Positions 8,066 to 63,927 of a stretch of 64,000 bases of DNA are shown one piece after another. The number at the start of each line of letters is the position of its first letter. The first letter of the stretch is position 1. Location of the stretch: contig OX597814.1 of the NCBI GenBank assembly GCA_951406725.2, forward strand, positions 16,864,001 through 16,928,000, read 5' to 3'. Origin of the DNA: Octopus vulgaris (Eukaryota). The notes below the pieces were generated by a model. It did no database searches. It had not been told where the DNA came from and saw only the letters and a program-made list of their open reading frames with translations. Both the position numbers and the translations under genes were made by a program.

Positions 8066-9156
8066 GGTACAGTCATATATTGAGCACTAATTATCATGGT
8101 TGTTGTATAAATCATGTGTGTGTGTGAGTGTGTGTGTGTATGTGTGTATGTGCGTGTGTACACTCACTTACACTCCTTATTACATTTTTGTTTCGTACTG
8201 TCTAGCTCATCCAGTTTTTTTTTATTTCGTGGGAATGGATTAATATTCATTCGTTCAGCTCTACTAAATTTCTTTAACAAGAAGTAACATCCTGAACGGT
8301 TTCTCTACTATACGTCTCACAGCAAAAACGGTGCCAATTCCAACACGATGAAGATAATCGTCAAAAGAACTTGATGGGTAATATCTTCATCGGCCTCAAA
8401 AAATTGAGCAATAAAATTAATCTAGGTGAATTTGAACTCGAATTTCAAAGCGCAGAGAACAATAATCATTTCCCGAAAAATAATGATCAGTCAGAGGTAT
8501 GCTCTTGAACTGCTTCGGCTGCATAAAACTAATAAGAGATAATAATCGTATGTCAGTATAGCTTAAGGGAAATCGAAGAACTGTTAATCTTCATGCCTCT
8601 ACTTGTTCTTTTCATGGTAACATAGAATAATAGCTGCACTTATCGTAAAATTACGAGTACAGGTCAAATGACCAATAATGCATAAATTATTTGAAACACA
8701 TACAAAAAGGTAACTTATACAAGTATCTGCAGGTAAAATTGTGCTTGTTAATGGAATAGAGGTAAAATATCCTAAAAATTGATTAAGAAATAATTAGATA
8801 AATAAATAAATAAAAATTACAAGATGGCACAAATGAAGAAGAATGCATACTACTCTATTGCGAAAAGGAATAAAAAGAATGTATTTTCAAGAAGCATATA
8901 TGGGTGTGTGTACACGCACACACACACGTGCACATACTACACCCCACACACAAACACCACCACCACCACCGCATGAACATAAAAAGACAGAAAAAGAGAA
9001 TTATATACTCTTTAAAATGTAGTAGAAGCAAAATGATTCGTGAGTCTTATTTACATTAGAAGAAAAGGCAGACACACAGATAGTTAGACGAACAGGTATA
9101 TATATCTACAGAAAGAAATATATATGTACATATATATATAAATATTTATTTGTGTC

Positions 9157-17477: not shown

Positions 17478-17710
17478 ATGTGTGTATATATGCTTATGCG
17501 TCTGTTTGTCCCCCCCCCCAACATCGCTTGACAACCGATGCTGGTATGTTTACGTCCCCGTAACATTAGCGGTTCGGCAAAAGTGAAAGATAGAATAAGT
17601 AGGCTTACAAAGAATAAGTCCTGGGTTCAATTTGCTCGACTAAAAGGCGGTGCTGCAGCATGGCCACAGTCAAATGACTGAAACAAGTAAAAATGTAAAA
17701 GAAAAGTAAA
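17255..17710 (+). mobile_element. SINE family B, full length
   Basis: Homologous to 22164-22588, with internal (TA)n(TG)n and a GTAAAA tail. Confidence 0.85.
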
Positions 17711-17731
17711 TATATATATATATATATATAA

Positions 17732-18009
17732 TAGTTATCGCCATACTAATATGGCATTCTTATAAAAATAAGAAAAAAGCTGTCCGCTTATTAGCTCCAT
17801 GAGGCCATCGCCTTAAGTTAGCTATTTGATACACAAACTGTATCCATATAACCTTCGAACAAGGGAGGTCAGTCGCTCCACACTACTTGACCGGCAGCTA
17901 CAGACGCGTTTCGGGGTATTGCCCCTTTTCAATGCAGCGTAGACTTGAGAGAGACTTAGTTATTTTAATATTTCTAATATTTCATGTTGTACACATTTCT
18001 ATTATATAC

Positions 18010-18011
<2 letters not shown>
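17732..18011 (-). mobile_element. ~280-bp hammerhead-containing element between (TA)n tracts (solo Penelope pLTR or retrozyme-like)
   Basis: Unique-sequence island bounded by (TA)n at ~17710-17731 and ~18012-18058, containing a fully folded minimal hammerhead and no recognisable ORF. Confidence 0.6.
17897..17938 (-). ncRNA. Minimal type I hammerhead ribozyme, U3-A8 core variant, GUC cleavage site
   Basis: Minus strand GCTGCA-TTGAAAA-GGGG caata CCCC-GAAA-CGCG-TC-TGTAGC: 6-bp stem I (one G.U), 4-bp stem II, palindromic ACGCGT stem III. Confidence 0.8.
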
Positions 18012-18062
<51 letters not shown>

Positions 18063-58147: not shown

Positions 58148-58738
58148 AAGGCGGCGAGCTGGCAGAAACCTTAGCACGCCGGGCGAAATGCTTAGCAGTA
58201 TTTCGTCTGCATTTACGTTCTGAGTAAAAATTCCGCCGAGGTTGACTTTGCCTTTCATCCTTTCGGGGTCGATTAAATAAGTACCAGTTACGCACTGGGG
58301 TCGATATAATCGACTTAATCCGTTTGTCTGTCCTTGTTTGTCCTCTCTGTGTTTAGCCCCTTGTGGGCAGTAAAGAAACAGAAATAGGTATTTCGTCTGC
58401 CACTACGTTCTGAGTTCAAATTCCGCCGAGGTTGACTTTGCCTTTCATCCTTTCGGGGTCGATTAAATAAGTACCAGTTACGCACTGGGGTCGATATAAT
58501 CGACTTAATCCGTTTGTCTGTCATTGTTTGTCCTCTCTGTGTTTAGCCCCTCGTGGGTAGTAAAGAAATAGGTGTTTCGTCTGCCTTTACGTTCTGAGTT
58601 CAAATTCCGCCGAGGTCGACTTTGGCTTTCATCCTTCCGGGATCGATAAATTAAGTGCCATTTGCGTACTCAGGTCGATCTAATCGACAGGCCCCCTCCC
58701 CAAAAATTTCGGGCATTGTGTCTAGAGTAGAAAAGAAT
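58148..58738 (+). mobile_element. SINE family A with triplicated ~185-bp body
   Basis: TTTCGTCTGC..GTTCTGAGT..GACTTTG(C/G)CTTTCATCC recurs at ~58200, ~58390 and ~58575. Confidence 0.88.
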
Positions 58739-60322: not shown

Positions 60323-61223
60323 GTATATATATATGTGTGTGTATGTATATATATATATACTCACACACAGTGTAGAGTATTGTATCTCAGTAATATTCAT
60401 TGAAATAGGTGAGAAATACTTGTTAATACATAGATTGTTCTGTTTATTAATTACTTATACATTCAATGTTTCGTTTGCTACTGATAGGAACGTATCTTTG
60501 TTGGATACATCGTTACACATTCATTGTTTCGCTTGTTAATGTGCTGCAAACAACATTGGTTACGAATGCATGGAATATGGAAATGCACGTTGAAGGATTA
60601 CAAAGGAGACAACCGCCTATAATATAAAATAAAAATAAAAATAAAACAGAAATTTTATACCATGAGCCGAACATTGAATAGAAGACAATCTATTATCAAA
60701 CGAAAGCCAGAATGAAAAGTATAACGTTGTTCTTTGAATTAAAGATTCAAAATGTCTGCCTTTAAACTATAGATGCAAGAGGGAATCGATTTTACGAGAT
60801 GATTTTCACCTGCACCAATGTCTTGCGTTGGTAAACTTTTTTGTTTCTAGGGAATACCATCAGCCTTCCTTTCTGCTGCCATTAGTAATTTGTCAATCAG
60901 GAATTTGATAATTCCGTACCAATGTTGCTGTTGTTTCTTTTTATTAACATCATCTTAGCCAGGTTGCTTTCGAGCTCTACGAAAAAAAAGCAAAGAAAGA
61001 AAGAAAGTAAAACATAACAAAAAAGAGATCAAACAAATACAAATCACAAAATACATTTCCATAGATTTTTAAGTTTTGTTCTGTGAGTTCTATGATATTT
61101 ATATATCAAATTATATATATATATAACGGGAAGCTTTATGAAAATAAACAAAAGACGAAGGCAGGTGGAAAACAAACGAACAATTGTATTAGTATGGCGC
61201 TCAGGAAATATAAATAAAACAAG

Positions 61224-61261
61224 TCTTTAACGTTTCGAGTCTACGCTCTTCAACAGAAAGA
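61224..61261 (-). ncRNA. Minimal type I hammerhead-ribozyme-like motif in the Penelope 3' repeat (non-canonical core)
   Basis: Minus strand TCTTT-CTGTTGA-A-GAG cgtaga CTC-GAAA-CG-TT-AAAGA: 5-bp stem I, 3-bp stem II, palindromic ACGT stem III. Core has U at position 6 and an extra A. Confidence 0.6.
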
Positions 61262-61439
61262 TACACAGAGAGAGAAAAACACAGAAAGAGGAGAGAAAAA
61301 AAATGCGTGCAGTAGCTAACGAATCAACATGGCGATCTGATTTCGGCCAGAGGTCAAAGATCAAACATGAGACGCGAGAGCGAAATAAGGGGAGATAATA
61401 GGGTTGATAAAAGGGTTGAGGGACCAGCTAAAAGTGCGT

Positions 61440-61760
61440 GGGAGGGGTCTGGATGTGTGTATGTATAGGGTTGGTGTATGTATTAGTATGTATAAGGGTG
61501 TGTGTGTGTGTGTGTGTGTATGAGAGAGTATTAGTGCATAGGATTGGTCTGGACGTGCGTATGTATGGGGTTGGTGTATGTATTAGTATGTATTAGTATG
61601 TATTAGTACGTATTAGTATGTATAGGTGTGTGTGTGAGAGAGTATAAGTGCGTATGCGGGGTCTGGACGTGTGTATGTATAGGGTTGGTGTAAGTATTAG
61701 TATGTACTAGTATGTATTAGTACGTATAAGTATGTATTAGTTGGTGTGTGTATTAGTATG
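61440..61760. repeat. Minisatellite in the Penelope 3' region (three ~100-115 bp units with TATTAGTATG sub-repeats)
   Basis: GTCTGGAYGTGYGTATGTAT(A/G)GGGTTGGTGTA recurs at ~61447, ~61547 and ~61661. Confidence 0.8.
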
Positions 61761-63926
61761 GCACATCATATGTGATGTGATGTGTAAAGTCATGTGGTGT
61801 AGTGAGGAGAAGAGGGGGAGGGGGAGAGAAGGGGAGGGGAAGAAGAGAGGGAGGAGAAGGGGGAAGAGGAGAGGAGGGAGAGAAGGAAGGGGAGGAGGGG
61901 GATGAAGGAGGAAAGAGGGAGAGGGGGAGAGAGGGAGCAGAGGGAAGGGGAAGAGGGAGGGAGAAAGAGGGAAGAGGGGAAGGGGAGTAGGGATGAAAGG
62001 ATGAAGGACTGAAGAAGTAGGGGTCGGGGGAGAAAGGATAGGTGAGGAGGGGGAGAGGGGGGTTAGATGAGGAGGGGGGAGAGTTTAGACCAAATGGCGT
62101 ATAAGAGCGAAGAGAGAAGATTAATTCCTGTTCACGGCGCAAACGGGAATCCGGATGGCCTCTGTGTAAGGACAAACCGAACACAGATAGGTGTTGCAAG
62201 GAGTGACCGGTGGAGCGGAAATGTCGTGAGACCGGTGTGTCGTTCGCAAGGTGGATGTCACGAAGGTGTTCCGCGAACCGGTCAGCCAAGCGGCGTCCCG
62301 TTTGTCCGATGTACAAGGAATTGCAGAGAGAGCAAGAGATGCAATAGATAATATTGCTGGAGGTGCAGGTGAAGGAGTGGATGATGGGATAGGGTCGATG
62401 GTGGGTGCTAGTGAGGCGGGTGGTGTTGGAGAGGTATGGGCAAGTGCGGCAACGTGGGCGGGAGCAGGGGAACGAGCCGGGTTGGGAGGTAGGGTCAGGG
62501 AAGGAGCTATGGACCAAAAGGTCTCGAAGGTTGTGGGCTCGTTTGAAAGAGGGGAGGGGTCGGTTAGGGAAGAGGTGTGAAGTGGAGGGGTCGGACTGGA
62601 GATGACGGAAAGCTCGAAGAATGGTGCGTTGGAGACGTAGGGTCGTGGGGTGGTAAGTGAGGGGAAAAGGGAGGCGGGAGACTACAGGGCGGGTTCGGGG
62701 AGAGAGAGCAGATACACGGTCCACGGACCGTGCTCTGGCAAGGGCGGTGTGGATAGTGGTGAGGGGGTATCCACGTAGGGTGAAGTGGTGAGCCATACGT
62801 TGAGACTGAGTCTCAAAGTCATGGTCGTCACTACAGAGCCTACGTAGACGGAGGAATTGGGAATAGGGGATGGAAAGCTTGGTGTGTTCTGGGTGGGAGG
62901 AAGAGAAGTTGAGGTATGAGTGTGAGTCTGTGTGTTTGTAGTGAATGGAGGTGGTAAGAGTGGAGTGAAGAATGCTAAGCGAAATGTCGAGGAAGGAGAC
63001 AGAGGTGTTGGAGATAGTGGAAGTGAAGTGGAGGGCTGGATGGAAAGATTGGACGAAAGAGAGGAAGGAATCTAGATGTTCGCGGGAGAGTGAGGTGGCA
63101 CCGATAATGTCGTCAATATAACGACCATATAGTTCAGGAGTGGGACCAGTGAAATTAGAGAATATTTGGGCCTCAACATAGCCAACGAACAGGTTCGCAT
63201 AGTTGGGGCCCATTCGCGTTCCCATGGCCACTCCCGAGACCTGATGGTAGAACTCGCCCGCGAACGAGAAGCAGTTCAGAGTAAGGACAAGTTCGGCCAG
63301 ACGAATGAGTGTGGAGGTGTCAGGTACAGGGTTAGAGCGGAGGTCAAGAAAGTGTCGAAGGGCCTGCAGTCCTTCGTGGTGAGGGATAACAGTATAGAGG
63401 CTTTGGATGTCCATAGTAAAAAGGATTTTGGAGGAGCCGGGAGGAAAGGAGAAAGAGTTGAAAAGCCGGAGAGCATGGTTGGTATCGTGGATGTGGGAGG
63501 GAAGAGATGCCACTAGGGGGGCAAGGACACGGTCGAGGTATTTAGAGATGAGCTCCGTGGGGCAGTTACAGGCGGAGACGATGGGGCGGCCAGGGTTGTT
63601 GGGTTTGTGGATTTTGGGGAGGAAGTAAATGGTGGGGGTACGTGGGGTTCGCACAATTAGGTTGGATGCGGTGCGGGGGAGACGGGAGGACGAGATGAGG
63701 TCTTGGACAGTAGAGGATACCGTCTGTTGGTAGCTACGTGTGGGGTTAGAGGGCAGAGGGAAATAGAAGGAGGTGTCATTGAGTTGGCGGAAAGCCTCGG
63801 CCCTATAGAGGTCCGCGCGCCACACCACTACAGCTCCACCCTTGTCAGCCGGTTTGATGATAATGTCAGCGCGCCGTTGGAGGGAACGAAGAGCCAAGAG
63901 CTCAGCCGGGGAGATGTGAGGCGGCG

Positions 63927-63927
<1 letters not shown>
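61753..63927 (-). CDS. Penelope-like reverse transcriptase / GIY-YIG endonuclease polyprotein (N-terminally truncated, no internal stops)
   Basis: PLE RT motifs IIIKPADKGGAVVV, YFLPKIHK..PGRPIVS, TMDIQSLYT, GVAMGTRMGPNYANLF, RYIDD, SFLD. Linker PCSRPRCRTC. GIY-YIG region NIIYCISCSLCNSLYIGQTGRRLADRFAEH ... PFGLN. The track's first 19 aa (MNIYIY...) are translated (TA)n and are excluded here. Confidence 0.93.

What the first reader, a model, noticed from the sequence alone, without database searches (positions are those of the whole stretch)
17897..17938. Fully folded minimal hammerhead ribozyme with a compensatory U3-A8 core in a ~280-bp ORF-less element
Seen: the minus strand reads GCUGCA-UUGAAAA-GGGG caaua CCCC-GAAA-CGCG-UC-UGUAGC. 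All three stems close and the cleavage triplet is GUC (cut between 17903 and 17902). The core differs from CUGAnGA only at positions 3 and 8. Established: C3-G8 is a Watson-Crick pair in the active hammerhead, so U3-A8 is a compensatory double change. Minimal type I hammerheads with a palindromic stem III are typical of Penelope pLTRs and retrozymes and are thought to cleave as dimers. Inference: this is a functional ribozyme family that CUGAnGA-based searches would miss. It sits in a small (TA)n-flanked element (17732-18011) that could be a solo pLTR or a non-autonomous retrozyme producing circular RNA.
Basis: partly seen in the sequence, partly recalled or inferred. Interest (0 to 1): 0.75.

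Follow-up and report, generated by a model that had tools for sequence, protein, structure and literature searches.

The report
Jumping ribozyme repeat with Penelope footprint
This is a truncated copy of a young, protein-free 362-base repeat, present hundreds of times in this animal genome, that carries a predicted self-cutting RNA with an already published core variant; the shape of its insertions suggests that a Penelope-type jumping-gene enzyme likely pastes it in by copying one small, probably circular, RNA.

Summary
The motif is real and family-wide: 1,249 exact core matches genome-wide (control 0); U3 in 238 of 238 and A8 in 240 of 240 unit copies; an older subfamily keeps the fold through compensatory changes. 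U3-A8 is already in print (PMC3088659, PMC4209133). Stem III cannot close in a monomer. The element is not a solo pLTR but a 5'-truncated piece of a 362-bp ORF-less tandem unit, a non-LTR retrozyme; this copy lacks the partner helix and is predicted to misfold. The interest is the insertion anatomy. 93 of 126 insertions are two back-to-back arms ending at fixed unit positions 175 and about 238 in (TA)n, the Penelope 'inverted copy plus tail' footprint. Rare variants are shared by all units of one insertion (31 cases), fitting rolling-circle copying of one RNA. A LINE lands at one site of the unit (21 of 28 3' ends). Cleavage, circles and the helper element are untested or not found; an A-to-G editing hint did not replicate. 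This scan noted the same family and anatomy before on other DNA.

The parts
17728..17942 (-). Arm A: 5'-truncated copy of the 362-bp unit, unit positions 323-362 then 1-175 (position 1 = first base after the predicted cut); ends at the family's short end
   Evidence: (L001, L124): 100% identity to the unit over 215 bases
17897..17938 (-). Type I hammerhead motif: stem I 6 bp, core UUGAAAA, stem II 4 bp, GAAA, palindrome, GUC
17926..17932 (-). Catalytic core positions 3-9 with U3 (17932) and A8 (17927)
   Evidence: U3 in 238 of 238 and A8 in 240 of 240 unit copies
17904..17909 (-). Palindrome ACGCGU, predicted to form stem III between two hammerheads; ACAUGU in the older subfamily
17902..17903 (-). 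Predicted cleavage site after C17
   Evidence: sequence read against the hammerhead consensus quoted; not assayed
17740..17755 (-). Hairpin just inside the short end, kept in the older subfamily; candidate start signal for reverse transcription (inferred)
17945..17981 (+). Arm B: short inverted copy, unit positions 203-239, ending at the family's long end (the 'tail', about 60 bases beyond the short end)
17982..18010 (+). Filler not in the unit, partly repeating the last bases of arm B; this copy is one of 4 of 93 whose long end is not followed at once by (TA)n
17709..17730 (.). Left (TA)n flank
18003..18059 (.). Right (TA)n flank

Best explanation
This is a 5'-truncated, likely inactive copy of a young 362-bp non-coding tandem element (a non-LTR retrozyme) whose U3-A8 hammerhead is predicted to self-cleave as a dimer, and which a Penelope-like reverse transcriptase-endonuclease likely copies into (TA)n from one, probably circular, RNA. 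Shown: the family, its fixed core, its tandem units, the two back-to-back arms with fixed ends at unit 175 and about 238, the (TA)n target, and variants shared by all units of an insertion. Inferred steps: arrays are transcribed; neighbouring hammerheads pair through the palindrome and cut out 362-nt monomers; a host ligase closes them; the Penelope-like protein nicks both strands of a TA repeat and starts cDNA at two fixed sites about 60 nt apart; each cDNA runs round the template until it breaks off; the two broken ends are joined, giving the inverted pair.
For: Family and core. Selection on structure: the older subfamily (81-90% identical) keeps U3/A8, varies position 7, swaps the first stem II pair G-C to A-U and the palindrome centre to ACAUGU; 97.8% of cells paired on 11 distinct motifs against 23-52% for slid controls. 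The unit folded as a circle has z -7.4 against 60 shuffles, with stems I and II at 0.94 or more. Penelope footprint: 93 of 126 insertions picked by the short end have an opposite arm ending at 232-239, and 89 of 93 of those ends run into (TA)n. An autonomous element of the same genome (784-aa RT + GIY-YIG) shows the same anatomy with ends at +64 and +98 in L086, L087, L088 and L090 and also carries a U3-A8 hammerhead. Inverted copy, one-sided tail and two start sites are described Penelope traits. One template: 121 of 219 arms run through the cut site; 2 of 257 crossings have an indel; 31 rare variants are in all 2-6 units of their insertion, 18 in both arms; both arms stop at the same base in 6 of 93, 0.8 expected.
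Against: No cleavage or circle was observed. In the one Penelope-like element studied in vitro the hammerhead was dispensable for insertion, uncleaved RNA was the main template, and no reads ended at the cut (PMC11167929). Eight of nine Xenopus retrozyme dimers did not cleave (bioRxiv 2026.07.22.740005). The helper was not found: three Penelope-like pLTRs share no clear sequence with the unit (best 6 of 200 shuffles, one of six tests), and the tail here (about 60 nt) is longer than the 30-40 nt described and the 34 nt of the autonomous family. 19 multi-copy sites are mixed within a locus (some of those loci hold two insertions). No arm of the end-anchored set stops at unit 1-2. Homogeneous source arrays would also give shared variants.
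Confidence: 0.7

Rival explanations
1. Same Penelope-type mobilisation, but from uncleaved linear multimers or from cleaved linear monomers joined by template jumping; no circle is involved and the ribozyme may cut rarely.
For: [quoted passage not shown] Excess of arm break-offs in unit 1-60 (67 seen, 35 expected) and one arm starting exactly at unit 1 (L038) could reflect linear 5' ends.
Against: With linear multimers arrays can only shrink, yet a variant seen in at most 2 of 145 loci fills up to 6 units on both arms. Junctions at the cut site are almost free of indels (2 of 257), which jumping would be expected to leave (inference). Unit 7-60 lies in a long predicted helix, which explains stalls there equally well.
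Confidence: 0.17
2. The unit is the orphan pLTR of an autonomous Penelope-like family not yet found, and the window copy is a truncated end of it.
For: Xenopus retrozymes are related to pLTRs. This genome holds several Penelope-like families, and only three were compared. The genome searches score only the best candidates.
Against: In the fetched copies the unit repeats head to tail with no ORF over 39 codons; long gaps between hammerheads held unrelated DNA or a LINE; no unit segment abuts a segment of the three families.
Confidence: 0.1
3. A DNA-level minisatellite with a fossil hammerhead, expanded by slippage or unequal crossing over.
For: DNA-level amplification is proposed for retrozyme arrays in bioRxiv 2026.07.22.740005.
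Against: Dispersed 97-100% identical insertions on many contigs, fixed 3' ends with variable 5' ends, and compensatory changes.
Confidence: 0.03

Closest known systems
Metazoan non-LTR retrozymes (Cervera and de la Pena 2020, PMC7229834: passages and Discussion read; Li, Clavereau and Pollet, bioRxiv 10.64898/2026.07.22.740005: parts 1-3 of 5 read)
   Same: ORF-less tandem unit in the 150-450 bp range (mussel 350-390 bp), one type I hammerhead per unit, low G+C, strongly self-paired predicted circle with the ribozyme free to fold, Penelope-like elements in the same genome.
   Different: Core is U3-A8. In the parts read, Penelope mobilisation is proposed from co-occurrence and pLTR relatedness; the two-armed, tailed insertion, the (TA)n target and a LINE landing inside the unit are not described there. 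Expression, cleavage and circles are shown there and untested here.
U3-A8 hammerheads (Perreault et al. 2011, PMC3088659: passages; Schistosoma Cercyon elements, Cervera and de la Pena 2014, PMC4209133: parts 1-2 of 4)
   Same: The same compensatory 3-8 pair, stated there to be natural and shown active in vitro in earlier work.
   Different: The Schistosoma motifs are minimal forms in pLTRs, mostly single and heterogeneous; here the architecture is canonical, tandem and nearly uniform.
Endonuclease-bearing Penelope-like elements (Craig et al., bioRxiv 10.1101/2021.04.23.441226: passages; Frangieh et al. 2024, PMC11167929: parts 1-2 of 4)
   Same: 5' truncation, partial tandems, adjacent inverted truncated copy, tail on one end only, AT-rich or (TA)n target, two start sites for reverse transcription.
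   Different: No ORF; tail about 60 nt rather than 30-40; no detected homology to the three local families tested.

Membership tests
Type I hammerhead ribozyme | Core positions 3-9, 12-14, the 15.1-16.1 pair and UH triplet, with a Watson-Crick 3-8 pair | tested here: met
   U3-A8 replaces C3-G8, a published natural variant
Type I hammerhead ribozyme | Stems I and II conserved as pairs | tested here: met
   (12 hand-picked motifs, 11 distinct; the two-sided changes are single inherited events)
Type I hammerhead ribozyme | Stem III closes within one molecule | tested here: not met
   2-nt loop forbidden; palindrome pairs between copies and covaries, as in dimer-type metazoan hammerheads
Type I hammerhead ribozyme | Site-specific self-cleavage | not testable with these tools
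   needs an in vitro assay
Type I hammerhead ribozyme | Match to an Rfam hammerhead model | tested here: not met
   no hammerhead hit at E up to 10
Non-LTR retrozyme | Tandem units of a few hundred bases, each with a type I hammerhead | tested here: met
   362-bp units; 33 of 126 insertions have two or more tandem hammerheads, a lower bound. The window copy itself has one.
Non-LTR retrozyme | No coding capacity, G+C under 45-50% | tested here: met
   longest ORF 39 codons; 151 of 362 bases G or C, 42%
Non-LTR retrozyme | Expressed as linear and circular monomers | tested here: inconclusive
   only assembled contigs of runs guessed to be RNA were available
Penelope-mobilised element | Inverted truncated copy, tail on one end, microsatellite target | tested here: met
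   93 of 126 and 89 of 93; same pattern in a local autonomous family
Penelope-mobilised element | Shared terminal sequence with an autonomous partner | tested here: not met
   three families compared, none matches; other families not compared
Solo pLTR of an autonomous Penelope-like element | The same sequence flanks an RT-GIY-YIG ORF elsewhere | tested here: not met
   not seen in fetched copies; the genome was sampled, not scanned whole

The most novel reading that the evidence does not exclude
A three-tier parasite system readable from genome sequence: a Penelope-like enzyme writes each retrozyme insertion from one RNA circle, from two fixed start sites on both nicked strands, fixing RNA-stage changes (possibly A-to-I edits) in every unit; and a site-specific LINE lands at unit position 302, perhaps the retrozyme's transcription start, borrowing its promoter and flanking ribozymes and sometimes riding along in Penelope-made copies.
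Probability: 0.3. Interest if true: 0.75.

Novelty: new variant of a known kind. Interest (0 to 1): 0.5.

Why it matters
How animal retrozymes get back into the genome has been proposed (circles copied by Penelope-like enzymes) but, in the papers read here, not shown. This family leaves countable footprints of that step: two fixed start sites, both strands primed, one template per insertion. It names the RNA, the start positions and the target for a direct in vitro test with an active Penelope-like protein. It also shows that hammerhead surveys limited to C3-G8 or to Rfam models miss a family of over a thousand motifs. The core variant itself is not new.

Tried and rejected
Rfam scans of the window copy and of a tandem array: no hammerhead hit; one search gave only microsatellite-driven matches. 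Helper search: three Penelope-like families compared with the unit by blastn and local alignment, none matching; a shared 13-mer with the second family is on the opposite strand and was not pursued; no direct unit-Penelope chimera among the fetched loci. A-to-G editing: 10 A>G against 1 T>C among rare shared variants in the first 78 loci, but 1 against 1 in 67 further loci, so not established; the overall purine excess (22 to 6) is post hoc. Break-offs just after the cut site: 15 seen against 6.1 expected in unit 1-20, then 8 against 4.4 (p 0.08) on replication; structure explains them as well as cleavage. Expression: no RNA holder listed; 8 of the 24 listed runs were laid, 7 guessed RNA and 1 of unknown kind, all contigs. 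Two runs of one sample each hold a 392-base contig lying wholly on the array (one unit plus 30), which a circle or a tandem array would both give, and DNA carry-over was not controlled, so it is not counted as evidence. A search for U1 promoters to compare with unit 230-300 returned only the one chimeric copy. A second LINE family at unit 302 was considered for L170 and dropped, because its protein match lies at the other end. Two papers on dimer cleavage and on exchange of the 3-8 pair were not held. No supplements were read; those of PMC4209133, PMC7229834 and the 2026 preprint (closed) may list cephalopod or U3-A8 families.

Full report
Observation. Stems I (6 bp) and II (4 bp) can pair. 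Stem III cannot close in one molecule because it would need a 2-nt loop; the palindrome ACGCGU pairs with a second copy at -7.5 kcal/mol. By the definitions of PMC4209133 this is the canonical metazoan type I architecture, not the minimal one. Rfam has no hammerhead hit here or on a tandem array.

The family. A genome search gave 128 matches from the 40 best of 411 candidates, many spaced 362 bases apart. A 17-mer of the core has 1,249 exact matches, control 0; two short-end patterns give 307 and 27 matches. The unit is 362 bp, 42% G+C, with no ORF over 39 codons. For variant calls I used 148 loci: 126 chosen by the short end, 11 by similarity and 11 by the core 17-mer. One segmental duplicate and alignments under 93% identity were dropped, leaving 145. 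U3 is in 238 of 238 and A8 in 240 of 240 unit copies. An older subfamily, 81-90% identical, keeps U3 and A8, varies position 7, and changes the first stem II pair to A-U and the palindrome to ACAUGU. On 12 motifs that I picked as intact (11 distinct; the older L031, with an insertion in the palindrome, was left out) 97.8% of cells pair, against 23-52% for slid controls; the two two-sided changes are single inherited events. Folded as a circle the unit has -123.6 kcal/mol against -82.2 (sd 5.6) for 60 shuffles, with the hammerhead stems at 0.94 or more at the end of a long helix joining unit 7-60 to about 270-323.

This copy. It holds unit 323-362 and 1-175 on the minus strand (17942-17728) and an inverted piece, unit 203-239, at 17945-17981, between (TA)n runs. 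It lacks the upstream strand of the long helix and has no tandem partner; its stem I probability is 0.02. It is most likely dead on arrival (inference).

Insertion anatomy. Of 126 insertions anchored at the short end (this copy included), 93 have an opposite arm ending at unit 232-239, 66 of them at 238, and 89 of the 93 run into (TA)n. The other 33 are cut by the fetched flank, have an arm too short to align, have a LINE inside, or are single-armed; one has two short ends. An inverted 5'-truncated copy and a tail on one end are Penelope traits (bioRxiv 2021.04.23.441226, passages), and the tail marks two start sites of reverse transcription (PMC11167929). An autonomous family here (RT and GIY-YIG; at least 150 matches) shows the same layout with ends at +64 and +98 and a different U3-A8 hammerhead. 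Neither it nor two other families shares clear sequence with the unit, so the helper is not identified.

One template per insertion. 121 of 219 arms run through the cut site, and 2 of 257 crossings carry an indel. At sites covered more than once in a locus, 248 variants are shared by all copies, 273 are private and 19 mixed; 31 shared variants occur in at most 2 loci, fill 2-6 units, and 18 are on both arms. Both arms stop at the same base in 6 of 93 against 0.8 expected. A monomer must have been multiplied at some step; rolling-circle copying is the simplest reading, and homogeneous source arrays or template jumping remain rivals. Two hints failed to firm up: the A>G excess (10 to 1, then 1 to 1) and break-offs just after the cut (15 against 6.1, then 8 against 4.4), which the long helix explains as well.

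A second parasite. That 302 is the retrozyme's start site is a hypothesis taken from another note and only partly tested.

Expression. No holder on record as RNA was listed, and contigs cannot show ends or circles; nothing is concluded.

Comparison with print. U3-A8 is natural and was shown active in vitro in earlier work (PMC3088659, passages) and occurs in Schistosoma Penelope-like elements (PMC4209133). The element fits non-LTR retrozymes (PMC7229834), for which Penelope mobilisation and circular templates are proposed; the 2026 preprint adds pLTR relatedness and found cleavage in 1 of 9 dimers. Searches for hammerhead with U3-A8 (1 paper), hammerhead ribozyme with octopus (4 listed, none on this by title or abstract), retrozyme with inverted or target site (20 of 126 listed) and retrozyme with LINE insertion (3 listed) showed no description of this family, of this anatomy in retrozymes or of the LINE target; the library lacks most subscription journals, and supplements were not read. 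Earlier notes of this scan report the same or sister families and the same anatomy in this and other genomes; they are not independent support. The anatomy and variant analyses above were done before I read them.

Verdict. A real, selected hammerhead in a known kind of element with a known core variant; the value is in the mobilisation footprints. New variant of a known kind, interest 0.5.

Noticed in passing
L047 2091-7436; L260-L287; L308-L321: A 5.35-kb LINE (zinc-knuckle ORF1; endonuclease-RT ORF2) is followed by unit position 302 in 21 of 28 3' ends, 16 of 23 separate places. 9 of 12 refetched target loci are full length between a 16-bp duplication of unit 302-317. One of the other 7 is followed by U1 snRNA from its first base. 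In L321 a piece of it lies inside a Penelope-type arm. 'Tx1-like' is my recalled label. The window copy lacks this site.
   Followed up: yes
L081-L090: Very young autonomous Penelope-like family, unit about 4.4 kb, with its own U3-A8 hammerhead (palindrome ACCGGU, triplet GUA). It has two overlapping frames (446 and 784 codons stop to stop, about 60 nt overlap) with the same break in all long copies: a possible programmed frameshift or intron.
   Followed up: partly
window 61120-63927 (-); L093-L122: A second Penelope-like family in the window: 612-codon open RT + GIY-YIG frame; its hammerhead-like motif reads CUGUUGA (U at position 6) in 30 of 30 loci chosen by similarity.
   Followed up: partly
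L256 3380-3430 (-); L289-L292: A third Penelope-like family has a hammerhead-like motif with an 8-nt palindrome, an apparent A3-U8 core and a weak stem II.
   Followed up: no
unit positions 242-275, e.g. L022 1058-1091: A second, degenerate hammerhead-like stretch just past the long end; its GAAA is not kept in the older subfamily. A TATA-like run lies about 30 bases before position 302.
   Followed up: no
L032 about 8260-8840 (-): Two C3-G8 minimal hammerheads 573 bases apart, possibly another retrozyme family.
   Followed up: no
window 58198-58688: 2.6 tandem copies of a 190-bp unit that resembles, from recall, an octopus SINE; with the 2.8-Gb genome this suggests a cephalopod host.
   Followed up: no
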